Positions 2,247-35,815 of a DNA stretch of 64,000 nt are shown piece after piece. The notes beneath the pieces are model-generated. The model did not search any database and was not told the origin of the DNA. It worked only from the letters and a program-made list of their open reading frames with translations. Source of the stretch: Escherichia phage muut; the sequence record NC_052657.1. One strand, written 5' to 3'. Position 1 is the first letter of the stretch; each line of letters starts with the position of its first letter. The position numbers were made by a program, and so were the translations under genes.

Positions 2247-2477
2247 TTATTTTTCATAGAATTTTTCTACTGTGATATTCTTCCCAGTGGGATTAGCTAC
2301 TTTCAAAATTTTATCATGTACTGGACGCCCAAAAGAATAAGATCCGTATACAGTAAACCAATAATCGCCGTCAGGCTGTACTATTACCGCCGCATATGGT
2401 ACGCCTTTTTCGTTATTGCTGACAGAATAGATCACATTGCCGTTCAGAGCCACAGCGCGTTTAATTTGTTCGATCAT
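2247..2477 (-). CDS. Hypothetical small early protein (start trimmed to internal Met, about 76 aa)
   Basis: The track ORF 2247..2555 runs through the conserved 5-prime hairpin; the Met at 2477 lies just downstream of the hairpin with an AGGAA ribosome-binding site. Confidence 0.45.
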   Translation of the reverse strand: MIEQIKRAVALNGNVIYSVSNNEKGVPYAAVIVQPDGDYWFTVYGSYSFGRPVHDKILKVANPTGKNITVEKFYEK

Positions 2478-2496
2478 GATATGATTCCTATATTGA

Positions 2497-2555
2497 GCGG
2501 GAAACCACTTCCCGCCTACGTGATACATCTTAGTATAAGGGCGATCCGGTGTCAA
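2497..2555 (-). promoter_or_regulatory. Early promoter plus 5-prime stem-loop cassette (-35 TTGACA at 2550-2555, -10 TAAGAT, hairpin GCGGGAA/TTCCCGC at 2497-2515)
   Basis: Minus-strand reading: TTGACA-N17-TAAGAT, then transcript start, then an inverted repeat ahead of the ribosome-binding site. Confidence 0.55.
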
Positions 2556-2900
2556 TAGGTGAGATTGTAAAGATTTGATAGTTTATTTCTTTAATGTTTT
2601 GTTGTTTGATAGGTGGAAGCTATCAATATATAATAAGATCGTCCGGTGATTATCTTCCCCTGCTCCCAGGTGCCGCCCGTTCCATAATAATAATCAAAAG
2701 CAGGATAAAAGGCAAGATAAAAAGCAAATTATTTCCTATGTGCTTTAAACGCTCTAAATAGTTTTATAACAGCTTTTTCATCCTGGCAAGGTGATTAGTC
2801 ATTGTTACCTTGTTTAAGCGGTTATAATCGGTTTTAGGCTGTTTTACGCCACCTTTTACGTTTATTCTTTACGTGTTACTTCCATCGTGAAAAAAGAATA

Positions 2901-2934
2901 CAAAAAAGGGCGCTTAGTGCGCCCCTTTCTTTTA
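2901..2934 (-). terminator. Rho-independent terminator, hairpin GGGCGC-ttagt-GCGCCC
   Basis: GC stem flanked by an A-run and a T-run; downstream of the minus-strand gene ending at 2942. Confidence 0.6.
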
Positions 2935-2941
2935 CCGTGTA

Positions 2942-3331
2942 TTAATATTCGTTATAATACATTGCTAACTTTTCATCAAAAGCCGATTGACGATCTGCAT
3001 ACTCCCAAAACATTTCCTGATCCTGTTGTTCGTCATCGTCCATCATATTAAATTGCGCAACCTCCTGGTAAGTGATCGCCATATTATAACGATAGGTGAT
3101 CTCTTCTGCGATGTTTTCCGGTAAAGATGATTCTACACTGTCTAACAGCATATTTAACATCATTTCAGCCGCTTTTTCATCATTATCAAAGCAGTAAGCA
3201 GACCATGCCGCATGATGTTTATTTTTCATCTTTGCAATCAAGCCGTTGACTAAAAAAGGCGCTACGTTGTTAACGATACCCTGTAAAGATTGAAATTTTT
3301 CAACGTTAGAAACAGAAACCAGGTTGCGCAT
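2942..3331 (-). CDS. Hypothetical early protein (129 aa, start trimmed)
   Basis: The Met at 3331 follows the promoter/hairpin cassette with ribosome-binding site AAAAAGGTAAA; the track start at 3367 lies inside the hairpin. Confidence 0.5.
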   Translation of the reverse strand: MRNLVSVSNVEKFQSLQGIVNNVAPFLVNGLIAKMKNKHHAAWSAYCFDNDEKAAEMMLNMLLDSVESSLPENIAEEITYRYNMAITYQEVAQFNMMDDDEQQDQEMFWEYADRQSAFDEKLAMYYNEY

Positions 3332-3355
3332 AGTATTTACCTTTTTGATTACCTG

Positions 3356-3413
3356 GCGGGAAACCATTTCCCGCCTACGTGGTAAATAGTACCATATTGG
3401 GGATCGGTGTCAA
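3356..3413 (-). promoter_or_regulatory. Early promoter plus 5-prime stem-loop cassette (hairpin GGCGGGAAA-cca-TTTCCCGCC at 3356-3375; -35 TTGACA at 3408-3413)
   Basis: Perfect 9-bp inverted repeat; TTGACA about 17 nt upstream of a -10-like hexamer on the minus strand. Confidence 0.55.
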
Positions 3414-3419
3414 TACTTT

Positions 3420-3806
3420 TTATTCAATATAAATCAAATTATCTTCACCAATGTAAGCATGCACCGATGGCATTAATTTAGCTGCATTTGTTAGGCGGTT
3501 GGCGGTGTTAGTAGTGTATATTTCAGGGCGATCCCAAAAGCCTACGCCGTGACCGTTACGGGTGAAATGTAAGTCATTCCCGATCTGGTTTGCTGTTGCG
3601 CCGTCGCTCATTGCCTCAGAGATAGCAGCATCATTGGCATCACAATAAGCCGCTACGTCATGAATGATCCGCTGATGGGCTTGATCTGAAAAATCATAAT
3701 CGTCTAAGTTATCAATAAAATTACCTTCATGATCCCTAGCTGATTCAGCAAAAATAAAGGCTTCTTTATAACCGTTGATGATTTCAATAATGATTTCTGT
3801 TTTCAT
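3420..3806 (-). CDS. Hypothetical protein (128 aa)
   Basis: ORF; its start overlaps the stop of the upstream gene (ATGA overlap), suggesting translational coupling. Confidence 0.55.
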   Translation of the reverse strand: MKTEIIIEIINGYKEAFIFAESARDHEGNFIDNLDDYDFSDQAHQRIIHDVAAYCDANDAAISEAMSDGATANQIGNDLHFTRNGHGVGFWDRPEIYTTNTANRLTNAAKLMPSVHAYIGEDNLIYIE

Positions 3807-4036
3807 GCTGTACGCTCGACAATAATAATGGTTTGCGGTATCTCGTTTTCTACTACTAACAAGGCTTTTTTCTGTGTGATAGATATTTTAACACGTTGTA
3901 AAGTAGCGGTAAAATCTTTCATTTCATTATGCGCGGATTTAGTGCAATGCCAGATCTCAGGCTTACCTATTTGCAAGCCGCGTAAAAATTCTGTTTTACC
4001 TGTCTTATTCGTGATCATTTGATTCACCTTATCCAA
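3803..4036 (-). CDS. Hypothetical protein (77 aa)
   Basis: ORF in an operon-like arrangement with 3420..3806. Confidence 0.45.
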   Translation of the reverse strand: MDKVNQMITNKTGKTEFLRGLQIGKPEIWHCTKSAHNEMKDFTATLQRVKISITQKKALLVVENEIPQTIIIVERTA

Positions 4037-4151
4037 TACCGTGGGAAGATAGGATCATGTTAGCCATAGTTGCAACCAATCCAACCGACAACGCCAGGCC
4101 AACTATTACAACCGTGAAAATTTTCTCTAACATGATTCTACCCTCATTAAT

Positions 4152-4213
4152 GGGCGTTGCCTTATTGCCCCGCCCTATGTCGTACACTTTACCAGATAAC
4201 CGCGTATTGTCAA
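4152..4213 (-). promoter_or_regulatory. Early promoter (-35 TTGACA at 4208-4213) plus imperfect GC-rich hairpin
   Basis: aaaatagTTTGACA motif shared with the other early promoters; GC-rich inverted repeat gggcg...cgccc. Confidence 0.4.
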
Positions 4214-4214
4214 A

Positions 4215-4409
4215 CTATTTTTTATAAGGGATCAGTAAACTTCTTGCTACCGCTTCACGTAAACCTTCCCTTTTTATCAGGTCTATTGTTGCAGGGTGGC
4301 AAGTAAAAGCCTTTGACCATTTTTGATCACCTGGTTTACGGGCGAAAATGTAAACTTCTCCGTCGATTTCATCCCAACGAGTATTGCTTGTTAGTTTTTT
4401 AAGCGCCAT
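4215..4409 (-). CDS. Hypothetical small early protein (64 aa, start trimmed)
   Basis: The Met at 4409 lies downstream of the hairpin at 4431-4450. Confidence 0.45.
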   Translation of the reverse strand: MALKKLTSNTRWDEIDGEVYIFARKPGDQKWSKAFTCHPATIDLIKREGLREAVARSLLIPYKK

Positions 4410-4430
4410 GCTGATTTCTCTTTTAGTTGT

Positions 4431-4488
4431 GAGCGGCACTATTGCCGCCCTACGAAATACATTCTACCCGATTTATAATTGTTGTCAA
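4431..4488 (-). promoter_or_regulatory. Early promoter plus 5-prime stem-loop cassette (-35 TTGACA 4483-4488, -10 TAGAAT, hairpin GGGCGGCA-atag-TGCCGCTC)
   Basis: Minus-strand TTGACA-N17-TAGAAT followed by an inverted repeat. Confidence 0.55.
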
Positions 4489-4489
4489 A

Positions 4490-4759
4490 CTATTTTTTCA
4501 AGCTCGACCAGTCAAAACACGGGGCGATCTCGTTAAAACTTGTACCCTGTAAAGCACATAATTTTTTAGCAATAGCCGCCGTAACCTGGCGTTGTACGCG
4601 CGGATCTGCTACTGATTGGAGAAAATAGGCGGTTTTATATGTGATCATGCTTTCGCCTGTTTCCTTGTTAACGTGGTGCACGGTTTTAGCCTTATCATCT
4701 TTTACCAGGGTGTAACCGGATTCGATGGCCTTGATTGCAACGTCCAAAGATATTTTCAT
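4490..4759 (-). CDS. Hypothetical early protein (89 aa)
   Basis: ORF with ribosome-binding site AAAGAGGTAAAT; 5-prime hairpin GGCGGGGGA-gtatt-CCCCGCC (plus-strand 4779-4799) upstream. Confidence 0.55.
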   Translation of the reverse strand: MKISLDVAIKAIESGYTLVKDDKAKTVHHVNKETGESMITYKTAYFLQSVADPRVQRQVTAAIAKKLCALQGTSFNEIAPCFDWSSLKK

Positions 4760-4806
4760 GATTTACCTCTTTATTGACGGCGGGGAATACTCCCCCGCCT
4801 TATTAA

Positions 4807-4977
4807 TTACTCTTCATCGTCGCCGTTATAGTATTCAATGCCGTTTTCATCGGTTACGGTGATGTTAACGCCACCAATAGCAACACGATCACGGGCAAAC
4901 GTCATGGCTTCATTTAAATCTTCAGACCAAAAAATATTGTGACCTTTGCGCGATACATAAAACATAGTTGGGATCAT
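4807..4977 (-). CDS. Hypothetical small early protein (56 aa, start trimmed)
   Basis: Internal Met downstream of the hairpin at 4999-5018. Confidence 0.45.
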   Translation of the reverse strand: MIPTMFYVSRKGHNIFWSEDLNEAMTFARDRVAIGGVNITVTDENGIEYYNGDDEE

Positions 4978-4998
4978 GATTTGTTTCTCTTCTGTTAT

Positions 4999-5057
4999 GA
5001 GCGGCACTATTGCCGCCCTATGTGATAAACTTTACTACGTTGTTTGCCTAGTGTCAA
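4999..5057 (-). promoter_or_regulatory. Early promoter plus 5-prime stem-loop cassette (-35 TTGACA 5052-5057)
   Basis: Same hairpin sequence as the 4431 cassette (gagcggcactattgccgcc); TTGACA upstream on the minus strand. Confidence 0.5.
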
Positions 5058-5058
5058 A

Positions 5059-5343
5059 TTATTTTTTAATGTTTTGCCCTACAAAATTAATCACTTCCTT
5101 AAGCTGTTTCTCAGTCATGATCGTGCCTGGCAATTCTTCTTTGATTTCTTCCGGTAGATAGATATTACCGCGCCAGGTTAATAAACAACCGTTTTGATCT
5201 TCGCAGATAGAATAAGAGAAGATCCACTCATTATCATTCTCAAGCTCCCAAAAGCACAAAAAATCTTCTTTCCCCAGGTTTTCAACGGTTAAACATAAGC
5301 CGCGACGTGCTGCATAGTTGGAAAGTGCTTTTGTGATCTTCAT
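5059..5343 (-). CDS. Hypothetical early protein (94 aa)
   Basis: ORF preceded by cassette (hairpin 5363-5384, -35 at 5420-5425, -10 TATATT). Confidence 0.55.
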   Translation of the reverse strand: MKITKALSNYAARRGLCLTVENLGKEDFLCFWELENDNEWIFSYSICEDQNGCLLTWRGNIYLPEEIKEELPGTIMTEKQLKEVINFVGQNIKK

Positions 5344-5362
5344 AGCTTATCTCTTCTTTTAA

Positions 5363-5425
5363 GGCGGGGAAACCATTTCCCCGCTCTATGAGATACAATA
5401 TACTACCCGTTCGGTGTGCTGTCAA
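5363..5425 (-). promoter_or_regulatory. Early promoter plus 5-prime stem-loop cassette
   Basis: GGCGGGGAAA-cca-TTTCCCCGC inverted repeat; TTGACA-N17-TATATT on the minus strand. Confidence 0.55.
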
Positions 5426-5749
5426 TCAATAATCTTCAATATTTTCTACATTGACAAAAGCATGTTTATTTTCTAAGTTTTCGCCGTACCATTGCCCCAT
5501 GTTGATTTCTGCGGTGCGCAACCAGGACATGCCGCGCTCTATCTTTTTACTTGCAATCTCGATCCGGCTTTTGCATAGTGCTTTCGCTTGCAATGTAAAA
5601 ACACTATTGCCCTGTAATGCTTCCAGGTCATCATGTGCAAGGCGATACTCTTTAAAGCCTGATTCTATCATTTCAATCGCATCAAGGAAACGAGCGCGAT
5701 GATAGAAAAAATCAGAGTTATCCAAATAAACACCGATCACAGATTTCAT
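5426..5749 (-). CDS. Hypothetical early protein (107 aa, start trimmed)
   Basis: ORF; internal Met chosen. Confidence 0.45.
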   Translation of the reverse strand: MKSVIGVYLDNSDFFYHRARFLDAIEMIESGFKEYRLAHDDLEALQGNSVFTLQAKALCKSRIEIASKKIERGMSWLRTAEINMGQWYGENLENKHAFVNVENIEDY

Positions 5750-6078
5750 AATTTTACCCTTTTGTTTGCGGCCTTTGCCGTTTTCAAGATATAGTTTAAA
5801 GCATAACAAAAAATTGTCAAGCCTTTAAAGCGTACAACTATAAAACCTATTAAAACACAATGCATAACAACATGGCTATAGTAGCAATACAACATAAAGC
5901 CATGCTTGTTTTCCTTCCTTCCTCGTATGCTGGATTTATTACGCTATATTGTACGGGAATAATTTTCATGCTGTTTCCTTAATGTCTTAAAACGTGGTTT
6001 ACAATAGAAACAAGTATACAGAAGAAAAAAGATCCTGACAATAAGATCCCGAAAAATAAATGTAAATAGGGCATGGTT

Positions 6079-6381
6079 TTACTCCTTAAAAAAATCATTG
6101 ACAATTAAACTGATAACGCCCAGCACCAGATCACCAGGTAGCGCCGCGCTTTCGTTGTTGCTTGTTTGCACTTCCTCACTAGTACCAGCATGATAGATTG
6201 CATGGTAAGCAATAGTACAATAACCTTTCGTTATTTCTTTAAGATTAATGATTAGCACGTTATTTGTTTCATCTTGAAACAATTTAGCGGTGATAGTATT
6301 GTTTTCTTTTACACTATCGACTTTTATTGATGGATCATTTACACCAGAAAAAAGAAAAAACGTTTTAGCTATGCCGTTCAT
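6079..6381 (-). CDS. Hypothetical protein (100 aa)
   Basis: ORF; hydrophobic N-terminus. Confidence 0.45.
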   Translation of the reverse strand: MNGIAKTFFLFSGVNDPSIKVDSVKENNTITAKLFQDETNNVLIINLKEITKGYCTIAYHAIYHAGTSEEVQTSNNESAALPGDLVLGVISLIVNDFFKE

Positions 6382-6428
6382 GTAGTTCTCCTTTGTTGTG
6401 TGTATCTTATAACGTGCTTTCTATGTTG

Positions 6429-6842
6429 TCAATCTTTTATCTCGGTGCATTTTGCTAGGGTATACGTTGCAAGTGCTGACACTAGTTTTTCATTGCTACG
6501 ATCTGCGGCTGTACTGTGTACTTTTTGAATACTTTTTAACCACGGCGTAAAATTTTGAGTAGTCAGCACACTGGTAATAATTTCACATGGCACATCTTCA
6601 TTTAAGCCGTTAACAATAGACTTATCTATTTTTGCCGTTAGTTGTGTAACAGCACCATAAGCGATCATGTGTGAATCCTCCATGATTTCATCGGGGATCG
6701 CATTATTAATAAGCATGACGTTTTCCATTGCATCAACGGCGCTTAATTCTGCTACTGTGGAGGATATCGCCGCGCTAGATGTTCCAACCATGCCAAAATA
6801 GATTAAACCAGCGATCAATAAGTTTTTCATTTCTTGCCTCAT
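6429..6842 (-). CDS. Hypothetical secreted/periplasmic protein (signal-peptide-like N-terminus)
   Basis: N-terminus MKNLLIAGLIYFGMVGTSSA resembles a Sec signal peptide. Confidence 0.55.
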   Translation of the reverse strand: MRQEMKNLLIAGLIYFGMVGTSSAAISSTVAELSAVDAMENVMLINNAIPDEIMEDSHMIAYGAVTQLTAKIDKSIVNGLNEDVPCEIITSVLTTQNFTPWLKSIQKVHSTAADRSNEKLVSALATYTLAKCTEIKD

Positions 6843-7021
6843 ATATGTTTTATTGAGATTATATTGTCACTATATACAACGTTTTTCAACGTGTCAATAA
6901 AAATCTTATTGCCTTCAATCCCCAGGATCACGCCGCTAGTTATGAAGCCATATTGATCACGATATCGGGCGCATAACCTTTGCCCCTGGGCTAGTGCCTT
7001 GCTTATTTCGTCTAATTTCAT
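6839..7021 (-). CDS. Hypothetical small protein (60 aa)
   Basis: ORF overlapping the start of 6429..6842 by 4 nt. Confidence 0.45.
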   Translation of the reverse strand: MKLDEISKALAQGQRLCARYRDQYGFITSGVILGIEGNKIFIDTLKNVVYSDNIISIKHI

Positions 7022-7111
7022 TTTTAAAGCTCCTGTAAAGCTGTCTAACGTGGTTTATAGGCTTATCCTGGCGTTACCATTGCCTATGGGTAACAAGCCT
7101 CTATATAAGCT

Positions 7112-7139
7112 AAAAGGGCGCTTATTGCGCCCTTTTTTG
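7112..7139. terminator. Bidirectional rho-independent terminator, hairpin GGGCGC-ttatt-GCGCCC
   Basis: GC stem flanked by AAAA and TTTTTT. Confidence 0.6.
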
Positions 7140-7140
7140 T

Positions 7141-7278
7141 TATTCGTTCCAGTATCTTTTTGTGCTGCGATCTCTTTTTGTTTTGTTCCGCTTATCGCCT
7201 TTTTTGGTGATCTCTTCGTTCCAATTTTTACGCGCCTTGCTGCGGTTGAATTTTTCGATCTGCTGTGATGCGTTCATG
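7141..7278 (-). CDS. Possible small basic protein (45 aa)
   Basis: Hand-translated MNASQQIEKFNRSKARKNWNEEITKKGDKRNKTKRDRSTKRYWNE; ribosome-binding site AAAGGAAAA; terminator just downstream. Below the ORF-track cutoff. Confidence 0.3.
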
Positions 7279-7292
7279 TTTTTTCCTTTTAA

Positions 7293-7652
7293 TCACGCCA
7301 CGTTATGCTGTTTTGCCAGGGTTACGATCATGCTTGCAATATATAACCAATAATTTTCCCGCTCACGGGTAACGGTTGTTTCTCTGCTTGTTTCTTTTAT
7401 GTACTTCCATTCAATTAACAAGTGATCGATCTCGTTATAATCAAAAGCAATATTGATTTCTGACGGTAAACCTTGTAACCAGGAGGCTATCGCCTTGATC
7501 ATGTTATGATTGTAACGTTTTTGATTATCGGGATACCAGTATTCAGAATTAAAACGGCGCATCAGTTCGGTGATTTTTTCTTTTTCGGTTGTAGTACCAT
7601 CAAAAGAAATAGCCGACAAAATGTAAGTTTTAATTGCTTTTGCTGATTTCAT
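7293..7652 (-). CDS. Hypothetical early protein (119 aa)
   Basis: ORF preceded by hairpin 7673-7693 and -35 TTGACA at 7726-7731. Confidence 0.55.
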   Translation of the reverse strand: MKSAKAIKTYILSAISFDGTTTEKEKITELMRRFNSEYWYPDNQKRYNHNMIKAIASWLQGLPSEINIAFDYNEIDHLLIEWKYIKETSRETTVTRERENYWLYIASMIVTLAKQHNVA

Positions 7653-7672
7653 AATCTTATCTCTTTATTGAT

Positions 7673-7731
7673 GGCGGGAAACCATTTCCCGCCGTTGTTG
7701 TTACTTTACTTATAAATGATGCTACTGTCAA
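7673..7731 (-). promoter_or_regulatory. Early promoter plus 5-prime stem-loop cassette
   Basis: GGCGGGAAA-cca-TTTCCCGCC perfect inverted repeat with TTGACA upstream. Confidence 0.55.
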
Positions 7732-7738
7732 GCGAATA

Positions 7739-7909
7739 TTATTTATTTTTTAACGTTAATGTTCCCAGCTTATCAGCGTGACGCAGACCAGGAAAGATCC
7801 ATTTTCCTGATTCATCTTTCACCGGGGCTTTAAGCGTAGCGCCCAGGTTGGCGGCGTTAACTTTACGTGCAACGTTGCGAGCGGCTTCACGGGTGGCGAA
7901 AGTGATCAT
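7739..7909 (-). CDS. Possible small protein (56 aa)
   Basis: Hand-translated ORF with ribosome-binding site AGAGGAAAC, downstream of hairpin 7933-7954. Below the track cutoff. Confidence 0.3.
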   Translation of the reverse strand: MITFATREAARNVARKVNAANLGATLKAPVKDESGKWIFPGLRHADKLGTLTLKNK

Positions 7910-7932
7910 GATGTTTCCTCTTCTCTTTGTTA

Positions 7933-7993
7933 GGCGGTGGGCTATTCCACCGCCTTAATGAATATAGTTTACTGATTTTAGTTATCTTGTCAA
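7933..7993 (-). promoter_or_regulatory. Early promoter plus 5-prime stem-loop cassette
   Basis: Hairpin GGCGGTGG-aatagc-CCACCGCC; TTGACA at 7988-7993. Confidence 0.5.
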
Positions 7994-8001
7994 GATTATT
8001 T

Positions 8002-8229
8002 TTAGTTTAATCCATCCAGGCACAACAAGCGATCAACGTTTAGATCGGTTAGGCTAATCGTTGGCACCTGGTAGGATTCGATGTACTCAACGCTCGACCA
8101 TTGCCCAAAGTTAGCGACCGCCCAGCTATTCAAGGAGGAGTGAAGATCATCCCCTTTCTTCTCTGTGATAACTGCTACTACCTGAGAGATTCCAACCGTA
8201 CCGGATACGCGAACAATAACGATAGCCAT
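8002..8229 (-). CDS. Hypothetical small early protein (75 aa)
   Basis: ORF preceded by cassette 8252-8312. Confidence 0.5.
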   Translation of the reverse strand: MAIVIVRVSGTVGISQVVAVITEKKGDDLHSSLNSWAVANFGQWSSVEYIESYQVPTISLTDLNVDRLLCLDGLN

Positions 8230-8251
8230 AATGATAACCTTTCTTTGATTT

Positions 8252-8312
8252 GGCGGGAAACCATTTCCCCGCCTTATGTGATAAACTATACCAGATTAAA
8301 AAACGTTGTCAA
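8252..8312 (-). promoter_or_regulatory. Early promoter plus 5-prime stem-loop cassette
   Basis: GGCGGGGAAA-tgg-TTTCCCGCC; TTGACA at 8307-8312. Confidence 0.5.
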
Positions 8313-8321
8313 CTGCTTTTA

Positions 8322-8561
8322 TTACATTCCTACCATAGCGGCGCGGATACTGGTTTTACTGAATTTATAGCCATCTGGCGTAGTATTTTCGCCCATTTCG
8401 TTAAGTAGTGACATCATTTCACGCGCGGCGTTATCTTTATTGTTGTTCACGGCTATAAATTCTTTTGCCATATTATAAAAACCTGGATCGTTATTAATCC
8501 AAAGGCTTACATTCCAATGAGTTTTATTTTTGTGACCGTTGTACATTTTAGATTTAGCCAT
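8322..8561 (-). CDS. Hypothetical small early protein (79 aa)
   Basis: ORF preceded by cassette 8586-8644. Confidence 0.5.
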   Translation of the reverse strand: MAKSKMYNGHKNKTHWNVSLWINNDPGFYNMAKEFIAVNNNKDNAAREMMSLLNEMGENTTPDGYKFSKTSIRAAMVGM

Positions 8562-8585
8562 GATGTTAATCTCTTTTTCAGTGAG

Positions 8586-8644
8586 GCGGGAACTATTCCC
8601 GCTCTCGATGTAAACTATTATACAGTACTAAGATACTTTGTCAA
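8586..8644 (-). promoter_or_regulatory. Early promoter plus 5-prime stem-loop cassette
   Basis: GCGGGAA-tag-TTCCCGC; TTGACA at 8639-8644. Confidence 0.5.
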
Positions 8645-8647
8645 TAC

Positions 8648-8923
8648 TTAAGTATTGTAAATGTCGTGAATAGTGATAAAGTTTTTACGACCGTAAACAT
8701 GTAAATCAGTATCAATGTAGTGCTTATCAAGTACATCCTCGACGCTTAACGCGGTGTCGTGAATATCTTCGTAGAATTGAGGATCTACAATCTTACTTAA
8801 ATCATCCGGCGTTAACTTATCATTAAGCCATTGAACCGCCTGGATATCTGCTTCACGTTTCCAGTCTTCCAGGTTAGTAGTCAGTACTTGTTCGATTTCG
8901 TTAGCTGTCAGTAGAATCCGCAT
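8648..8923 (-). CDS. Hypothetical early protein (91 aa)
   Basis: ORF preceded by a consensus promoter. Confidence 0.55.
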   Translation of the reverse strand: MRILLTANEIEQVLTTNLEDWKREADIQAVQWLNDKLTPDDLSKIVDPQFYEDIHDTALSVEDVLDKHYIDTDLHVYGRKNFITIHDIYNT

Positions 8924-8956
8924 TTTAATGTTTCCTTATCAGTGGTTGATGTAAGT

Positions 8957-8984
8957 ATTATACTCGTTTACTTTCTATTGTCAA
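8957..8984 (-). promoter_or_regulatory. Consensus sigma70-type promoter (TTGACA-N16-TATAAT)
   Basis: Minus-strand TTGACAatagaaagtaaacgagTATAAT read directly. Confidence 0.6.
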
Positions 8985-9106
8985 ACTATTTTATCAGGGG
9001 GAGTTTTTCGTGTGCCTTACTCCTGGGCTACTTAACGGGGTGTTACTTCGTTCCCCCGTCCTGATATGAAACATTTTACGCTTTTTATTCGTGCTGTCAA
9101 TGCTTT

Positions 9107-9472
9107 TTATAAATCTTTTTTACGTTTAACATCGCTTGCATGGCTGTATACAGCGATCCCATTGTCACGGCAAAAACGGGAAAGATACGCGCCGCGTGAA
9201 AACTCTTTACCTTCCAGGTTGATAACCTTGCTAAACTCTTCTAGGGCAACGGTATCAAAATGATCCCCGTATCCATATTGGAACGGCACGTTTACCACTT
9301 CGATCAGTTTACCGCCGATCTCAACGTCAACCATCAAAGAGAAATAAGTATTACCATAAGACTTTTGAAACCAGCGACGGGCGCTAATATGCACCGCTTC
9401 AATGCTGGATAGTTCAATTTTAGCCGTGTTAGCCAGGGTAGCATAAGCGGAAACATTAATATTTTTAGCCAT
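9107..9472 (-). CDS. Hypothetical protein (121 aa)
   Basis: ORF. Confidence 0.5.
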   Translation of the reverse strand: MAKNINVSAYATLANTAKIELSSIEAVHISARRWFQKSYGNTYFSLMVDVEIGGKLIEVVNVPFQYGYGDHFDTVALEEFSKVINLEGKEFSRGAYLSRFCRDNGIAVYSHASDVKRKKDL

Positions 9473-9618
9473 GATTTTATTCCTTAGTAACGCTTCAATT
9501 TATATAAGCATTATAGCTTACTGATTTCAGTTGTCAAGTGATTTTTTATTTCACCTTTGAGGGGGTTGCCCCGCTCTATGTGGTACATATTACGGGGCTT
9601 GTTTGCATATGTCAAGCC

Positions 9619-10173
9619 TTACACAATGCAATTTTCATAATTTTTTAAGGCTTGTATTTTTTCCTCTTCTGTCGGCCTATATGGCTGGATCTCTTCCTCT
9701 TCCAGGGTGGGCATGATTTCTTCCTCTTCCTCCTGGTCGTCCTGGTCTTCCTCTTGCGCTATGGTAACAAGTTTATTGATCTTCTCCTGGGCTTTAATCA
9801 ATTTTGCATCTAGCACCATTTTAGCGGTGTTGTATACAGTCCATGCCATGCGCTTTTCTTCGTATGCCTTATCTAGTGCGGCTAATTTAGCGGGATACTC
9901 TTCTAACACCTTAAAAGCCGGATCAATGCTATATAAGGGATTATTTTTAGCATCATCGCTTGGATCTGCGGCGCTTGCAATGTCAGCGTTACCATTTGCC
10001 AGCCAACCAGGGCGAACGGATCGCGCCTTTGTGTTGCCGTTGCTCTTTGCCGCTCGATTTCCTATCTGCTCCCCGCTATACCCTACCATGTGATCGATCA
10101 TTTCATCTGGTATTATGCGCGGATCATTAGCGTCATGCTTTACCCATGACTGGATCACATATTCACGCCCCAT
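9619..10173 (-). CDS. Hypothetical protein with acidic C-terminal tail (184 aa)
   Basis: ORF; C-terminus rich in Glu/Asp (EEDQDDQEEEEE). Confidence 0.55.
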   Translation of the reverse strand: MGREYVIQSWVKHDANDPRIIPDEMIDHMVGYSGEQIGNRAAKSNGNTKARSVRPGWLANGNADIASAADPSDDAKNNPLYSIDPAFKVLEEYPAKLAALDKAYEEKRMAWTVYNTAKMVLDAKLIKAQEKINKLVTIAQEEDQDDQEEEEEIMPTLEEEEIQPYRPTEEEKIQALKNYENCIV

Positions 10174-10435
10174 GTTCGTTCGCCTCTTCTGTTAGTAGTT
10201 TACATACCTTAAACATGCTTGCCGCATCTTTTGACGGTAGCCAGCCTATCCGATACACTCCAGGATCTGGATTAGTTATATCAGTTAGTTGCGCGTTGCG
10301 ATGATTAAAAATAGTGTAACCGCCGCCAGCACGGGGATAAACATTATCTTTAAACCTGATAGCGTATCTCGCCAGGTCGAACGTTGTAGCATGTTCAAAA
10401 GCGATCACATTATCAAAAACTTTTAGAAAAAACAA
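10163..10435 (-). CDS. Hypothetical protein (90 aa)
   Basis: ORF overlapping the start of 9619..10173 by 11 nt. Confidence 0.45.
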   Translation of the reverse strand: MFFLKVFDNVIAFEHATTFDLARYAIRFKDNVYPRAGGGYTIFNHRNAQLTDITNPDPGVYRIGWLPSKDAASMFKVCKLLTEEANEHGA

Positions 10436-10437
10436 GA

Positions 10438-10584
10438 TTATCCTCCCCAGCGTTTAAAGCCCGTTGCACGGTTGTTTTTTAGCTCTCGTTTTAGTCTCTT
10501 GCAACGGTTTACAAGTGCAAACCGTGCCGGAGTCGTAACAGTAGCGCCGTTTTTGGTGTGAATACTCATTACATATTGTTTCAT
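10438..10584 (-). CDS. Possible small basic protein (48 aa)
   Basis: Hand-translated ORF downstream of hairpin GCGGGAA-tag-TTCCCGC at 10604-10620. Below the track cutoff. Confidence 0.3.
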   Translation of the reverse strand: MKQYVMSIHTKNGATVTTPARFALVNRCKRLKRELKNNRATGFKRWGG

Positions 10585-10766
10585 AAAGTTTTATCCTATG
10601 TAAGCGGGAACTATTCCCGCTTTAAGATAGCTTATCAGGTTTTAGTGCAACGTCAACCGTTTTTTTAATCTTTTTTCATTTCTTTTTTGCTTGCTATCTA
10701 TAAAGGAAACGGCTATTATCTTTCTACCGCGCCAACCAGGGCGCACATCAAAGAAAGGGCGATACC

Positions 10767-11035: not shown

Positions 11036-11064
11036 TTGACAAGCCCAGGGATCGGGCTTATACT
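11036..11064 (+). promoter_or_regulatory. Strong sigma70-type promoter (TTGACA-N17-TATACT) driving a non-coding region
   Basis: Read directly; the downstream ~100 nt carry GC-rich inverted repeats and no ORF. Confidence 0.45.
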
Positions 11065-11296
11065 GTTTTACATACAGAAGAGGAAGCGCCACCCCCACGG
11101 CGTAAAGGCGGGGCTAACATACCAGGGCACTACTGGTTGGAAGGTTGATCGCCGGTAGCTCGTCTAAAATAAATTTGTAAAGAAATGTAAAGATAAAAAT
11201 AATCGCTTGCTTTTGTTGTTGGTTATGCTATTCTTATTGTATGGCGAGGGGATACGGGAGCGCGAGACAAACACCACCCCTGCGCGTTATTCTCTA

Positions 11297-11408
11297 AATG
11301 AGAAAATTCTTATTTGGTAATGATTCTCATTCTCTTACTGAGAATGATTATCACTTACATAATTAAATGATAATGATTCTCATTTACAAATGAGAATGAT
11401 TATCATCC
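11297..11408. repeat. Cluster of five Fur-box-like palindromic motifs (AATGAT[TA]NTCAT)
   Basis: Read directly: taatgattctcattctc, gagaatgattatcacttac, gataatgattctcatttac, gagaatgattatcatccg and one degenerate copy. Confidence 0.5.
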
Positions 11409-11430
11409 GCACACCCATAAAAACACGAAA

Positions 11431-11628
11431 TTGAACTTTTCATTTTTGATTTTTCTACGGAAAAAGGCAAAAAAACTTTAAATAAACTGGGGAATTTTTA
11501 AAAAATTGAAGTTTTCATTTTCAAAATCTGGACAGAAATACATACAAAAACTTTAAATAATTTTGACCAAACTTGAACTTTTCATTTTCAAAATTTGTAG
11601 CCAAAAATCTGTAAAAACTTTAAATAAT
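11431..11628. repeat. Three direct repeats of about 56 bp (TTGAAsTTTTCATTTT...AAAAACTTTAAATAA)
   Basis: Units at about 11431-11486, 11506-11561 and 11573-11628, read directly; ORF-free and AT-rich. Confidence 0.55.
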
Positions 11629-11845
11629 TTTATCCTTTTTATAAAAATGATTTTACTGTTCTGTTATAAATAGTAGTTAAGAGATAATGTGTCTTTTAAA
11701 AGCCAGATAGCATAGTCCAACAAACAAATTAAATAATTTATTAACAGAGTACAGAATAATATTTACTCTGGATATATTATTCAGAGGGTGGATTTCCGTA
11801 CATGAAACCCACACCCCTTTTATAAAAATAAAAATTTTCAAAATA

Positions 11846-12397
11846 TCAGGAAATATCAGATTGTGTTTTTAGATAAACAGCAAGGTCTGTATGCCATTTT
11901 CCTAAAAGATTTTGTCCTTTCCAACAATCCTTGTTTTCAACATTACGATCCCACATCCCCATTTTGATACCATAAATAGAATCATAAGGGCTTGCCTCTA
12001 CGAACTCCTTATCTGCGTAAGCAATAAGTTTATTTTTGAGATCTTCATTTTGTGTGTATTTAAGATACAAACCACGTTCGACAATCTTCTCCCGTAAAGA
12101 AGTCCAGGTATCTTCATCATAATCCTTAACTAATCTACCTAGTCGCTTATAATATGCTTGTTCTTTTTCTCCTGTATATCTTAGATCTCCGGTTAAAATA
12201 GAAGATGCAATATTGTAATCATAAAACAAACATGCTTTTCTCCACATCATATATTGTTCCACACAAGTAAATTCAACATAACTTGTAATAGAATTATTAT
12301 ACTTGGGAGCTAAAGGTTCAATAAAAGATGATAGATACCAGTTGCTAAATTCATCTTTTGCCGAAAAGAAGAACACATACTTATCAGTAATCCGCAT
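11846..12397 (-). CDS. NADAR/YbiA-like (DUF1768) domain protein
   Basis: Motifs FFFSAKDEFSNWYLSSF, ASPYDSIYGIKMG and GQNLLGKWHTDL resemble the YbiA/NADAR family pattern (FF..SNF.., SP.D..WG.G, G.N.LG). Confidence 0.5.
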   Translation of the reverse strand: MRITDKYVFFFSAKDEFSNWYLSSFIEPLAPKYNNSITSYVEFTCVEQYMMWRKACLFYDYNIASSILTGDLRYTGEKEQAYYKRLGRLVKDYDEDTWTSLREKIVERGLYLKYTQNEDLKNKLIAYADKEFVEASPYDSIYGIKMGMWDRNVENKDCWKGQNLLGKWHTDLAVYLKTQSDIS

Positions 12398-30010: not shown

Positions 30011-30477
30011 ATTACGCCGGATATGAACCTGTTGACATGCTCAACGGTGACGGTGTAAGATGCTCTTTGTGGGTGAGCGGTTGTAGCCACGGTTGCCGTG
30101 GCTGCTTTAACCAGAAAGCCTGGTCGTATAACTACGGACAAGAGTTCACTACTGAAACATTAGATCTTATCTTGAAAGATTTATCTCGACCTTTCATTAA
30201 AGGATTAACAGTTTTAGGTGGTGAACCTCTTGACAAAGAGAACATTGACACTGTAGCGTATGTTCTTGAGAAGGTAAGAGATTGTTTTGGAAACAAAAAA
30301 GATATTGTCTTATACACAGGATATCTTTTTGAAGAAATTCCAGAGAAAATTAAAAAACTGGTTGACATAGTGATAGATGGTAAGTATGATATGAATCAAC
30401 CAACAACGAAACGTTATAGAGGCTCAGATAATCAACGAATGTGGGTTAAGAAAGACAACATTTGGGAATCTGACTAA
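30007..30477 (+). CDS. nrdG: Anaerobic ribonucleotide reductase activating protein (radical SAM)
   Basis: N-terminus (M)NYAGYEPVDMLNGDGVRCSLWVSGCSHGCRGCFN closely parallels E. coli NrdG; TTG start overlaps the nrdD stop. Confidence 0.8.
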   Translation: MNYAGYEPVDMLNGDGVRCSLWVSGCSHGCRGCFNQKAWSYNYGQEFTTETLDLILKDLSRPFIKGLTVLGGEPLDKENIDTVAYVLEKVRDCFGNKKDIVLYTGYLFEEIPEKIKKLVDIVIDGKYDMNQPTTKRYRGSDNQRMWVKKDNIWESD

Positions 30478-34760: not shown

Positions 34761-34819
34761 TTGACTTTCTTTAAAAACAGTTTATAGTATAAGACATAGA
34801 GCGGAGGATTGTCCTCCGC
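34761..34819 (+). promoter_or_regulatory. Promoter (TTGACT-N16-TATAGT) plus 5-prime stem-loop (GCGGAGGA-ttgt-CCTCCGC) ahead of the TerC-like gene
   Basis: Read directly; same promoter-then-hairpin architecture as the early cassettes but on the plus strand. Confidence 0.5.
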
Positions 34820-34837
34820 ATTAAAGAGGAGAAAAGA

Positions 34838-35815
34838 ATGCAACTGGGTTTCCCAATTATTGATGTGGTTGTTTTAGTGGGTATTTTAGTCTTGTCGATT
34901 TGTATTGACTTCTTTGGACACAGAGAAAACAAAGAAATTTCATTTAAATCTGCAATTGGCTGGTCAATTTTCTGGATTGGGGTATCATTAGCCTACTATG
35001 GTTTTGTATACTTCCAACACGGTGCTGATTTTGCGAGCTTGTTCTTGAGTGGGTATGTGTTGGAGAAATCTCTTTCTGTAGATAACTTAGTAGTATTTGT
35101 AGCAGTATTCGCAAGTTTTGGTATTAAAAGCACACACTTGCAGCACAAGATTCTACTTTGGGGTATTGCAGGTGCGATTGTCTTCCGAGGTGTGTTTGTA
35201 GCAGTAGGCACTTACTTGTTGAGTTTGGGCTGGTATGTTAATATCTTCTTCGGTGCTGTCATCCTTTTCTGTGCGGCTAAAATGGTATTCGCTGGAGATA
35301 ATGATGCAGAAGTTGATTACTCTAAACACTGGGCTACTCGCATTGTTCGTAAGCTGTTCCCTGTATCTGATCAGATGGATGGTGAGAAGTTCTTCACAAT
35401 CAAAAATGGTGTTCGTGTAGCAACTCCGGCTCTGGTTTGTGTGTTTGTAATGGAAATGGTTGACGTAATCTTTGCAGTAGACTCTGTTCCAGCAGTAATT
35501 GCAGTGACACAAGAACCTCTGCTTGTATTTTCTTCAATGCTGTGTGCAATTTTAGGTCTACGTGCTCTGTTCTTTGTACTTAGTGTTGCACTGAAATATT
35601 TGGTTCATCTGGAGAAAGCAGTTATCGTAGTCCTGGTGTTTGTGGGTGTAAAACTGATGTATCATCCGTTTGCAGAAACTCTGCACGCAAAAGTGAGTTT
35701 CCTACCAGCACACATTGATCCGACGATCAGTATGTATATTGTGTTAGGTACTCTTGGGTTGGGTGTTATTGCAAGTTTAATCTTCCCTGAAAAAGAAGAC
35801 CAGACTGTTGCTTAA
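34838..35815 (+). CDS. TerC-family integral membrane protein
   Basis: Multi-pass hydrophobic profile with TerC-like motifs DNLVVFVAVF and VDVIFAVDSVPAVIAVT. Confidence 0.6.
   Translation: MQLGFPIIDVVVLVGILVLSICIDFFGHRENKEISFKSAIGWSIFWIGVSLAYYGFVYFQHGADFASLFLSGYVLEKSLSVDNLVVFVAVFASFGIKSTHLQHKILLWGIAGAIVFRGVFVAVGTYLLSLGWYVNIFFGAVILFCAAKMVFAGDNDAEVDYSKHWATRIVRKLFPVSDQMDGEKFFTIKNGVRVATPALVCVFVMEMVDVIFAVDSVPAVIAVTQEPLLVFSSMLCAILGLRALFFVLSVALKYLVHLEKAVIVVLVFVGVKLMYHPFAETLHAKVSFLPAHIDPTISMYIVLGTLGLGVIASLIFPEKEDQTVA

What the first reader, a model, noticed from the sequence alone, without database searches (positions are those of the whole stretch)
2497..10656. Repeated promoter plus 5-prime stem-loop cassette in front of at least 12 early genes
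On the minus strand a near-identical unit recurs: aaaatagTTTGACA, a 16-17 nt spacer, a TATAAT-like hexamer, about 7 nt, then a perfect inverted repeat of the type GGCGGGAAA-nnn-TTTCCCGCC, about 20 nt, then a ribosome-binding site and ATG. Hairpin positions on the plus strand are 2497, 3356, 4431, 4779, 4999, 5363, 7673, 7933, 8252, 8586, about 9561 and 10604. The hairpin is not followed by a U-run, so it is not an intrinsic terminator. It may stabilise the 5-prime end, act as an RNase III processing site, or bind a regulator. Several track ORFs are artificially extended through the hairpin.
Basis: seen in the sequence. Interest (0 to 1): 0.6.

Follow-up and report, generated by a model that had tools for sequence, protein, structure and literature searches.

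The report
Promoter–hairpin cassettes before phage early genes
A phi92-like E. coli phage places the same small unit (a strong host-type promoter, a short GC-rich hairpin at the start of the transcript, and a ribosome-binding site) in front of about 14 small early genes; the units probably stabilise the messages and also mark the points where genes have been swapped, even with unrelated phage families.

Summary
The window is a Stephanstirmvirinae (phi92/phAPEC8-like) myovirus. Between 2475 and 10656 on the minus strand there are 13 promoter-plus-hairpin cassettes and one hairpin without a promoter. One more cassette lies on the plus strand at 34761. A strict definition finds 10, against 0.07 in shuffles.

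The geometry is tight. The stem starts 10-11 nt after the -10 hexamer, so it lies inside the transcript 2-4 nt from the inferred start. The start codon follows 17-24 nt after the stem. The hairpins have no U-run, are too short for RNase III, and leave the ribosome-binding site open. Pairing is kept through compensatory changes (98% paired across 45 distinct copies).

The best reading is a 5'-terminal stabiliser hairpin inside a modular early-gene cassette. Transcript starts and half-lives are not measured, so this is inferred.

The cassettes are also recombination joints. 22 of 33 homology breakpoints fall in them, and a ~500-bp module shared with jumbo phage 121Q is bounded by two of them. 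The closest known kind is the PeSL of T4-like phages. There the stem-loop sits inside the promoter; here it is transcribed. I rate it a new variant of a known kind. The conserved U-R-G loop is unexplained.

The parts
10582..10656 (-). Cassette 1. -35 TTGACG at 10651-10656, -10 TAAGCT at 10629-10634, hairpin AAGCGGGAA-tag-TTCCCGCTT at 10602-10622, ATG at 10584.
9559..9615 (-). Cassette 2. -35 at 9610-9615, -10 TAATAT at 9587-9592, bulged hairpin GAGCGGGGcaaCCCCCTC at 9559-9576. A second, hairpin-less consensus promoter follows at 9510-9537, before the ATG at 9472.
9035..9100 (-). Cassette 3. -35 at 9095-9100, -10 TAAAAT at 9073-9078, hybrid hairpin ACGGGGGAA...CCCCGT at 9035-9059 with a 13-nt loop. 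Only the left arm matches the intact hairpin of phage ZYD, so this is a recombination joint.
8559..8644 (-). Cassette 4. -35 at 8639-8644, -10 TATAAT at 8617-8622, hairpin GAGaGCGGGAA-tag-TTCCCGCCTC at 8583-8606, ATG at 8561. The promoter, including its spacer, is identical to a cassette of jumbo phage 121Q.
8227..8312 (-). Cassette 5. -35 at 8307-8312, -10 TATAGT at 8285-8290, hairpin at 8252-8273, ATG at 8229.
7907..7993 (-). Cassette 6. -35 at 7988-7993, -10 TAAACT at 7966-7971, hairpin AGGCGGTGG-aatagc-CCACCGCCT at 7932-7955, ATG at 7909.
7650..7731 (-). Cassette 7. -35 at 7726-7731, -10 TAAAGT at 7703-7708, hairpin GGCGGGAAA-tgg-TTTCCCGCC at 7673-7693, ATG at 7652.
5341..5425 (-). Cassette 8. 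-35 at 5420-5425, -10 TATATT at 5397-5402, hairpin at 5364-5384, ATG at 5343.
4975..5057 (-). Cassette 9. -35 at 5052-5057, -10 TAAAGT at 5029-5034, hairpin GGGCGGCA-atag-TGCCGCTC at 4999-5018, ATG at 4977.
4757..4799 (-). Hairpin without a recognisable promoter. GGCGGGGGA-gta-TTCCCCGCC at 4779-4799, 7 nt after the stop codon of the upstream gene and 19 nt before the ATG at 4759.
4407..4488 (-). Cassette 10. -35 at 4483-4488, -10 TAGAAT at 4461-4466, hairpin at 4431-4450, ATG at 4409.
4131..4213 (-). Cassette 11. -35 at 4208-4213, -10 TAAAGT at 4186-4191, hairpin with an internal loop GGGCGGGGCAATAAGGCAACGCCC at 4152-4175, ATG at 4133.
3329..3413 (-). Cassette 12. -35 at 3408-3413, -10 TACTAT at 3386-3391, hairpin at 3355-3375, ATG at 3331. 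The hairpin apex contains a spurious ATG at 3365-3367.
2475..2555 (-). Cassette 13. -35 at 2550-2555, -10 TAAGAT at 2527-2532, hairpin at 2496-2516, ATG at 2477.
34761..34840 (+). Plus-strand cassette before a TerC-family membrane protein gene. -35 TTGACT at 34761-34766, -10 TAGTAT at 34785-34790, hairpin GCGGAGGA-ttg-TCCTCCGC at 34801-34819, ATG at 34838.
7112..7136 (-). For contrast: a true intrinsic terminator from a different hairpin family (AAAAGGGCGC-n5-GCGCCCTTTT, with flanking A/T runs). Similar ones lie at 2902-2930 and 1753-1773.

Best explanation
Each unit is a self-contained early-gene expression cassette.

Promoter. A near-consensus sigma-70 promoter (A-rich upstream tract, TTGACA, 16-17 nt, TAnnnT) is read by unmodified host RNA polymerase.

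Hairpin. Transcription is inferred to start at the A that lies 8 nt (or 6 nt) after the -10 hexamer. The mRNA would then begin with 2-4 unpaired bases followed at once by a 7-10 bp G+C-rich hairpin of -11 to -19 kcal/mol. The Shine-Dalgarno sequence and the AUG, 17-24 nt downstream, stay unpaired. The hairpin most likely works like the 5'-terminal stem-loops of ompA, papA and T4 gene 32 mRNAs. It would hide the 5' end from RppH and from the 5'-end-dependent entry of RNase E, so that short monocistronic early messages last longer. In read-through transcripts, including the promoter-less copy at 4779, it would cap the downstream fragment after cleavage in the AU-rich promoter RNA.

Recombination. 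Because the roughly 85-nt unit is repeated with high similarity, it also serves as a homology patch. Recombination within it inserts, deletes or swaps single ORFan genes, both within this phage lineage and between unrelated coliphage families.

What is shown: the anatomy, non-randomness, conservation of pairing, orientation with the genes, the absence of terminator and RNase III features, and the breakpoint association.

What is inferred: the transcription start, early timing, and the stabilising effect.
For: - Count against chance: 10 strict copies versus 0.07 in shuffles.
- Fixed geometry: the gap from -10 to the stem is 10-11 nt in 50 of 69 copies, and the stem-to-ATG distance is 17-24 nt.
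- Folding: minimum free energy is -10.6 to -18.7 kcal/mol with z-scores of -1.9 to -5.2, and the SD/AUG is unpaired in nearly all leaders.
- Pairing: on a covariance-model alignment of 45 distinct copies, 98.2% of cells are paired, 5 of 9 pairs change on both sides, and 0 of 500 shuffles reach the observed value.
- Orientation: cassettes follow gene direction on both strands.
- Promoter-less copies keep the hairpin-SD-ATG spacing. This ties the hairpin to the downstream cistron rather than to initiation.
- The initial transcribed sequence (ITS) between the -10 and the stem is conserved, while the -35/-10 spacer is not.
- There is no sense-strand U-run, whereas the region's real terminators have one.
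- Breakpoints: 22 of 33 clusters lie in cassette spans that cover 16% of the region (p = 1.6e-10). 22 lie at hairpin-bearing gene junctions and 4 at hairpin-less ones.
- Explicit joints lie in a hairpin loop and in a promoter spacer.
- Window 8570-8929 is 93.7% identical to jumbo phage 121Q and ends at cassettes.
- The 5'-hairpin principle comes from established work cited in PMC3997798 (Emory, Bouvet and Belasco 1992; Bricker and Belasco 1999) and in PMC8948821 (Gorski et al. 1985).
Against: - No transcript 5' ends or half-lives exist for this phage group.
- With the likely start, 2-4 nt stay unpaired. That is borderline, because RppH needs only 2-3 unpaired bases (PMC3997798).
- A hairpin that is not at the extreme 5' end does not stop RNase E scanning (PMC9943677).
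- The loop (U-R-G closed by A-U pairs) is more conserved than the lower stem across three phage lineages. A purely thermodynamic cap does not need that.
- Five strong promoters in the same array lack the hairpin.
- The covariation alignment was fitted to the model, and the copies are related by descent and by transfer.
- Breakpoints would tend to fall at gene boundaries in any case.
Confidence: 0.5

Rival explanations
1. The hairpin is a sequence-specific tag on early transcripts, read by a phage-encoded or host protein (or RNA). The reader could act as an early-mRNA shut-off nuclease or translational repressor, an activator, or an antitermination factor. The stem would only present the conserved A-URG-U apex.
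For: About 46 of 59 distinct sense-strand hairpins from Stephanstirmvirinae, Vequintavirinae and Asteriusvirus carry a UAG or UGG loop closed by A-U pairs, while the lower stem varies (per-pair table). The loop always reads URG in the direction of transcription. The sequence between the -10 and the stem is also conserved.
Against: The cassettes are demonstrably exchanged between these phages: one promoter spacer is identical in the window and in 121Q. Loop conservation may therefore be shared descent. About a fifth of the loops differ (GUA, UGU, AAC, ACAAG, CGG). No boxA-like partner element is enriched, and there is no Rfam match. No candidate binding protein was identified.
Confidence: 0.2
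2. The hairpin is a transcription attenuator or terminator for polymerases arriving from upstream cassettes. This is the function proposed for PeSL stem-loops, and it is how the phage Paula record labels them.
For: One RB49 PeSL stem-loop, which also lacks an obvious U-run, lowered lacZ expression as much as rrnB T1 (PMC2839356). The Paula GenBank record annotates these hairpins as terminators. Upstream genes end 0-12 nt before each -35 box with no other terminator, so read-through does reach each hairpin.
Against: No U-run follows the hairpin on the sense strand, whereas real terminators in the same region have one. The hairpin lies downstream of its own promoter, so an efficient terminator would abort that promoter's transcripts at about +25. 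Several of the Paula 'terminators' are annotated on the strand opposite to the genes.
Confidence: 0.1
3. The inverted repeat acts at the DNA level. It would be either an operator for a dimeric repressor that shuts off early promoters (its position, about +4 to +24, resembles lacO), or the target of a dedicated recombinase or endonuclease that moves the cassettes.
For: The repeat is palindromic and overlaps the initial transcribed region. Six of 33 breakpoint clusters lie in the hairpin itself, which covers 4.7% of the region (p = 0.004). One joint lies exactly in a loop. Arbiol et al. speculated about such a protein for GGGG...CCCC stems (PMC2839356).
Against: Arm sequence, arm length (6-10 bp) and arm spacing (3-6 nt) all vary while complementarity is kept, which is unlike half-sites of a dimeric binding protein. 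Promoter-less copies exist, where there is nothing to repress. BLAST segment ends are drawn to the most conserved patch, which is the hairpin. Homologous recombination suffices and needs no dedicated enzyme.
Confidence: 0.1
4. The hairpin is an RNase III processing site.
For: Only the general precedent of RNase III sites between phage T7 early genes (from my own knowledge).
Against: The stems are 7-10 bp. E. coli RNase III substrates are about two helical turns long (established knowledge). There is no internal-loop architecture like the T7 R sites.
Confidence: 0.02

Closest known systems
PeSLs (promoter-early stem-loops) of T4-like phages RB49/phi1, PST/T4 and nt-1/KVP40 (Arbiol et al. 2010, PMC2839356; Comeau et al. 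2014, PMC4122927)
   Same: Both are repeated composite units: an A-rich tract, a near-consensus sigma-70 promoter, a G-run...C-run stem-loop, and the SD/ATG of a small ORFan. Both are concentrated in a hyperplastic early region. Insertion, deletion and replacement joints between related phages fall in the units.
   Different: I scanned RB49 directly. Of 19 consensus promoters scanned, 12 had a detectable GC stem-loop. 11 of those 12 lie inside the promoter, either in the -35/-10 spacer or across the -10, and so are not in the promoter's own transcript. Only one lies downstream. In this window the stem always starts 9-14 nt after the -10, so it forms the 5' end of the cassette's own mRNA. The host lineages also differ (Stephanstirmvirinae, Vequintavirinae and Asteriusvirus, not Straboviridae). 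BLAST finds no sequence similarity to RB49. Here sharing crosses phage families.
5'-terminal stem-loop mRNA stabilisers (ompA and papA 5' UTRs; T4 gene 32 leader)
   Same: A stable hairpin lies at or within a few nucleotides of the (inferred) mRNA 5' end, with an accessible ribosome-binding site downstream.
   Different: Those are single, experimentally proven elements. This one is a family of more than 14 copies per genome with a conserved loop, and its effect on half-life is untested.
Lambdoid nut sites (boxA + boxB) and HK022 put RNA
   Same: A promoter-proximal RNA hairpin on early transcripts.
   Different: The loop is a U-R-G triloop, not a GNRA-like pentaloop. No boxA is present. There are 14 or more copies rather than two. 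The put RNA is a much larger two-stem element.
Morons and integron gene cassettes
   Same: Single genes move together with their own expression signals. Repeated boundary elements containing inverted repeats mark the joints.
   Different: No integrase and no attC-type site are present. No terminator closes each unit, unlike morons. The genes lie in the same orientation as their neighbours.

Membership tests
PeSL (promoter-early stem-loop cassette) | A repeated composite motif: an AT-rich tract, a sigma-70-like promoter, a G/C stem-loop, and the SD/start of the downstream gene | tested here: met
PeSL (promoter-early stem-loop cassette) | Concentrated in a hyperplastic region, upstream of small genes of unknown function | tested here: met
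   In the whole genome of the close relative ZYD, copies lie at 77.9-87.3 kb plus one or two elsewhere. All genes tested are PHROGs of unknown function, and one belongs to the T4 gp30.8 family.
PeSL (promoter-early stem-loop cassette) | Indel and replacement joints between related phages coincide with the motif | tested here: met
   22 of 33 breakpoint clusters lie in cassettes (p = 1.6e-10). Explicit joints are shown. A module shared with 121Q is bounded by cassettes.
PeSL (promoter-early stem-loop cassette) | The stem-loop lies within or upstream of the promoter, or just before the start site, so that it acts on transcripts from upstream | tested here: not met
   Here the stem starts 9-14 nt after the -10. 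In RB49, 11 of the 12 detected stem-loops lie at -24..-6 or -16..+5 relative to the end of the -10.
PeSL (promoter-early stem-loop cassette) | The stem-loop terminates or attenuates transcription (shown for one RB49 PeSL) | not testable with these tools
   The sequence shows no sense-strand U-run.
PeSL (promoter-early stem-loop cassette) | The host genome is a T4-like phage | tested here: not met
   The closest records are Justusliebigvirus and Phapecoctavirus.
Intrinsic (Rho-independent) terminator | A G+C-rich hairpin followed directly by a U-run, at the end of a transcription unit | tested here: not met
   The sense-strand tails are A-rich, for example ATCAATAAAGAG. The scan flags only 4779 and 7673, both weakly and both on the antisense strand. 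The position is between a promoter and an SD.
5'-terminal stem-loop mRNA stabiliser | A stable hairpin in the 5' UTR with the ribosome-binding site left free | tested here: met
5'-terminal stem-loop mRNA stabiliser | No more than about 2-4 unpaired nucleotides between the 5' end and the stem | tested here: inconclusive
   This is inferred from the 10-11 nt gap between the -10 and the stem and from the conserved CA/CA start context. The transcription start is not mapped.
5'-terminal stem-loop mRNA stabiliser | Removing the hairpin shortens mRNA half-life in an RNase E/RppH-dependent way | not testable with these tools
   This needs an experiment.
RNase III processing site | A double-stranded stem of about two helical turns | tested here: not met
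   The stems are 7-10 bp.
nut site (N-type antitermination) | A boxA element plus a boxB hairpin with a GNRA-like pentaloop | tested here: not met
   CGCTCTTA with at most 1 mismatch occurs 35 times against 33.8 expected, and is not associated with the cassettes. The loops are U-R-G triloops.

The most novel reading that the evidence does not exclude
The hairpin may be more than a passive cap. It would be a shared, sequence-specific signal (apex A-URG-U), carried by the early genes of at least three unrelated families of large coliphages. It could be read by a common host or phage factor that controls the fate of early mRNAs, or by a dedicated recombination function. In the second case these cassettes would form an integron-like system that moves early genes between virulent phage families.
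Probability: 0.15. Interest if true: 0.75.

Novelty: new variant of a known kind. Interest (0 to 1): 0.45.

Why it matters
Phages like phi92, phAPEC8 and rV5 are widely isolated and are used as therapy candidates, yet their early regions are annotated as strings of hypothetical proteins. In the public records I looked at, the hairpins are unannotated (phi92), labelled as terminators, some on the wrong strand (Paula), or translated as part of a CDS (ZYD).

Recognising the cassette has four practical consequences:
- It fixes gene starts.
- It predicts the early transcription units.
- It offers compact parts (a strong promoter plus a 5' hairpin plus an RBS) for expression design.
- It gives a concrete, testable mechanism for how small host-takeover or anti-defence ORFans are exchanged between unrelated phages infecting the same host.

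It also extends the PeSL idea beyond T4-like phages, and separates a transcribed-hairpin variant from the in-promoter variant.

Tried and rejected
- MAFFT plus RNAalifold on 36 leaders gave no consensus structure, because stem and loop lengths differ. I replaced it with a covariance model built on 7 gap-free seeds and its alignment.
- I tested whether G-U wobbles outnumber A-C mismatches, which would prove RNA-level pairing in the sense strand. The count was 9 versus 5, with few independent events, so this is inconclusive and not used.
- Exact-pattern scans of IMG/VR for the hairpin and for leader plus hairpin returned only a few true relatives among chance hits.
- Rfam has no family for the element.
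- There is no boxA enrichment.
- I looked for an Srd-like or other RNA-decay factor near the array with PHROGs and Pfam and found none.
- Literature searches found no description of promoter-adjacent hairpins and no transcript mapping for Stephanstirmvirinae, Vequintavirinae or Asteriusvirus.
- The hairpin at 30085-30103 that follows a promoter-like match is rejected as a cassette. It lies inside the coding sequence of the anaerobic ribonucleotide reductase small subunit.
- My first breakpoint statistic used three slightly wrong hairpin coordinates. I recomputed it with corrected ones.

Full report
CONTEXT

The 8.6-kb region matches 282 phage records. The best matches are at 95-97% identity over 92-95% of its length, to Escherichia phages of the phi92 group (Justusliebigvirus). 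Coverage falls to about 35-45% in Phapecoctavirus and to single genes in Vequintavirus and jumbo phages. The window is therefore a Stephanstirmvirinae myovirus. The region corresponds to phi92 gp226-gp248, a run of small hypothetical genes. All ten gene products I scanned belong to PHROG families of unknown function. One is a member of the T4 gp30.8 family.

OBSERVATION CHECK

It also adds three copies:
- 4152-4175, with an interrupted stem.
- 9035-9059, with a 13-nt loop.
- A plus-strand copy at 34801-34819, in front of a TerC-family membrane protein gene.

In total there are 13 promoter-plus-hairpin cassettes and one hairpin without a recognisable promoter (4779-4799) between 2475 and 10656. 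A strict definition finds 10 copies in the 64-kb window, against 0.07 per dinucleotide shuffle.

Five other strong promoters in the array have no typical hairpin: 9537, 8984, 6897, 6432 and 5820.

The mechanical ORF list does run through the elements. ORF 2247-2555 starts at the TTG of a -35 box. ORF 2942-3367 starts at an ATG created by the hairpin apex AAATGG. The curated phi92 and Paula records start the genes at the downstream ATG that has a Shine-Dalgarno sequence, whereas the ZYD record uses the hairpin ATG. The hairpins are therefore not parts of longer conserved proteins.

ANATOMY

I pooled 69 distinct copies from the window and relatives. Each unit has these parts in order:
- An A-rich tract.
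- An almost invariant TTGACA.
- A 16-17 nt spacer of low information content.
- A TAnnnT hexamer.
- A moderately conserved 10-11 nt stretch (consensus GTATCACATAG).
- The stem.
- An A/C-rich linker.
- A purine-rich Shine-Dalgarno sequence and the ATG.

The gap from the -10 to the stem is 10 or 11 nt in 50 of 69 copies (range 8-14). The distance from the stem to the start codon is mostly 17-22 nt.

The stop codon of the upstream gene lies 0-12 nt before the -35 box, so nothing else separates the genes.

Folded as RNA from the inferred start to the ATG, the 14 leaders have minimum free energies of -10.6 to -18.7 kcal/mol (z-scores -1.9 to -5.2). The Shine-Dalgarno sequence and the start codon are unpaired in nearly all of them.

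DISTRIBUTION

In the complete genome of the close relative ZYD, the element occurs only in the homologous 77.9-87.3 kb early region, plus the TerC-gene copy and one looser copy.

The same architecture, with the same spacing, is present in:
- Phapecoctavirus genomes.
- A Vequintavirus, NHEP1.
- Klebsiella phage FBKp34 and Pectobacterium phage phiTE.
- Jumbo phage 121Q, with at least a dozen copies in 14 kb.

Rfam has no matching family.

STRUCTURE RATHER THAN SEQUENCE IN THE LOWER STEM

MAFFT plus RNAalifold failed, because stems and loops differ in length. I then built a covariance model from seven gap-free seeds. It found 64 sense-strand copies in 332 kb, of which 45 are distinct. On its alignment:
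- 98.2% of cells form standard pairs.
- Five of nine pairs show changes on both sides.
- No shuffle out of 500 reached the observed pairing or covariation.
- All slid registers are far worse.

Two caveats apply. The alignment is fitted to the model, and the copies are related.

The arms range over GGCGGG, GCGGGG, GGGCGG, GUGGGG, GGGGAG and AGGGG, each with a matching partner. A test for an excess of G-U over A-C mismatches, which would have shown RNA-level pairing in the sense strand, was inconclusive (9 versus 5).

UNEXPLAINED: THE CONSERVED APEX

About 46 of 59 distinct sense-strand hairpins from all lineages have a UAG or UGG loop closed by A-U pairs. Typical forms are GAA-UAG-UUC, AAA-UGG-UUU and GCA-AUGG-UGC. 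The loop always reads this way in the direction of transcription. Shared descent through transfer of cassettes can explain this, but a sequence-specific reader cannot be excluded.

WHAT IT IS NOT

- It is not an intrinsic terminator. The sense-strand tails are A-rich. The loose scan flags only two copies, both on the antisense strand. The real terminators of the region belong to another hairpin family with T-runs, at 1753, 2902 and 7112. A terminator just downstream of its own promoter would also be self-defeating.
- It is not an RNase III site, because the stems are 7-10 bp.
- It is not a nut site. There is no boxA enrichment and no pentaloop.

MOST LIKELY MECHANISM (INFERRED)

E. coli RNA polymerase usually starts 7-8 nt after the -10 hexamer, at a purine preceded by a pyrimidine (established knowledge). 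In the consensus G1-T2-A3-T4-C5-A6-C7-A8-T9-A10, followed by GGGCGG, position 8 (or position 6) fits that rule. This leaves about 3 (or 5) unpaired bases before the stem.

That is the arrangement of the 5'-terminal stem-loops that stabilise ompA, papA and T4 gene 32 messages against 5'-end-dependent attack. The primary references are listed in PMC3997798 and PMC8948821.

Promoter-less copies keep the hairpin-SD-ATG spacing. This links the hairpin to the downstream cistron. It also fits a role as the protected 5' end after cleavage in the AU-rich RNA upstream.

There are weak points. RppH needs only 2-3 unpaired bases (PMC3997798). A hairpin that is not terminal does not block RNase E scanning (PMC9943677). 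The model therefore stands or falls with the true start site, which has not been mapped for any phage of these groups.

RECOMBINATION ROLE (SHOWN BY COMPARISON)

I compared the window with nine related loci. 22 of 33 distinct homology-block ends lie inside cassette spans that cover 16% of the region (p = 1.6e-10). 22 lie at gene junctions with a hairpin, 4 at junctions without one, and 7 inside genes. Only 12 of the 26 gene starts carry a hairpin.

At window 9035-9100 three genomes differ in an informative way:
- The window and ZYD are identical up to GGACGGGGGAA, and then diverge in the loop.
- Paula has lost the intervening gene, through a joint inside the promoter spacer.

The segment 8570-9079 is related to jumbo phage 121Q. 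It is 93.7% identical over 363 nt and 88.6% over 140 nt, and it ends in two cassettes. The promoter of the 8644 cassette, including its otherwise unconserved spacer, is identical to a 121Q cassette, and the encoded 91-aa protein is nearly identical. Cassettes therefore flank modules that move between unrelated phage families.

The caveat is that BLAST segment ends are drawn to shared repeats and to gene boundaries.

COMPARISON WITH THE KNOWN KIND

PeSLs of T4-like phages are composite sigma-70 promoter plus stem-loop motifs in hyperplastic regions. They mediate modular shuffling, and their stem-loops are regarded as terminators (PMC2839356, PMC4122927). I scanned the RB49 hyperplastic region directly. 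Of 19 consensus promoters scanned, 12 had a detectable GC stem-loop. 11 of those 12 lie in the -35/-10 spacer or across the -10 hexamer, and only one lies downstream. In the window the stem is always downstream of the -10 and is therefore transcribed from its own promoter. No sequence similarity to RB49 was found.

The element meets the compositional, locational and evolutionary criteria of a PeSL. It does not meet the positional criterion, and it comes from other phage lineages.

STATE OF ANNOTATION AND LITERATURE

- The phi92 record annotates only CDS and RBS features.
- The Paula record labels the hairpins as terminators, several on the wrong strand.
- The FBKp34 record annotates the promoters but not the hairpins.
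- The rV5 genome paper lists promoters and terminators without mentioning promoter-adjacent hairpins.
- I found no paper describing this element in the searchable library. The library lacks most subscription journals.

VERDICT

This is a real, highly non-random, conserved regulatory cassette. The best explanation is an early promoter with a 5'-terminal protective hairpin, doubling as a recombination linker. My confidence is about 0.5 for the full statement, and higher for the cassette and linker part. I rate it a new variant of a known kind and of moderate interest. The conserved loop and the sharing across phage families are the features most worth following up.

Noticed in passing
window 11100-11850: A ~750-bp non-coding stretch lies next to the cassette array. 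It holds three ~63-nt direct repeats (11427-11631). It also holds palindromes that resemble the E. coli Fur box as I recall it, TGAGAATGATTATCA / ATGATAATGATTCTCATTT (11315-11406; 19-nt arms, 95% complementary). It could be an origin or iteron region, or a binding-site cluster. A replication-initiator-like ORF lies at 17258-18256.
   Followed up: partly
window 11036-11064 (+): A plus-strand promoter, TTGACA-agcccagggatcgggct-TATACT, carries a GC hairpin inside its -35/-10 spacer. This is the arrangement typical of RB49 PeSLs, so both arrangements occur in this genome.
   Followed up: no
window 8570-9079: This block (a promoter plus a 91-aa gene, MRILLTANEIEQ...) is 88-94% identical to jumbo phage 121Q (Asteriusvirus). 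It is absent from the close relatives ZYD and Paula. This points to recent gene flow between phage families.
   Followed up: yes
window 5746-7136 (especially 6255-6780): A sub-block between terminator 7112-7136 and cassette 8 uses strong promoters without the hairpin (6897, 6432, 5820). Its 137-aa gene is about 90% identical at the DNA level to several ~350-kb jumbo coliphages.
   Followed up: no
window 3365-3367; L008 3645-4070: The hairpin apex AAATGG creates an ATG. It is used as the CDS start in the ZYD GenBank record (141 aa), whereas the Paula record gives 129 aa. This is likely a mis-annotation recurring across records.
   Followed up: partly
window 8986-9100 and 9510-9615: There are two tandem-promoter arrangements. 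In each, a hairpin-bearing promoter is followed 80-115 nt later by a perfect-consensus promoter without a hairpin. The spacer at 8986-9072 folds at -22.6 kcal/mol (z = -2.4) and has relatives in 121Q. It could be a short leader RNA.
   Followed up: partly
public records: Nineteen records named 'Campylobacter phage' (MG0656xx) are about 96% identical to this coliphage region. The ZYD record is filed under Vequintavirus although it is about 96% identical to Justusliebigvirus genomes. These look like labelling problems in the databases.
   Followed up: no
window 11846-13588 (-) and 34838-35815 (+): Neighbouring genes encode a NADAR-domain protein, a CapR-homology/T5orf172-type endonuclease and a TerC-family membrane protein. 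The TerC gene is the only gene outside the array that carries the cassette.
   Followed up: partly
window 30085-30103: A perfect 8-bp GC hairpin follows a promoter-like match, but it lies inside the coding sequence of the anaerobic ribonucleotide reductase small subunit. It is not a cassette.
   Followed up: yes
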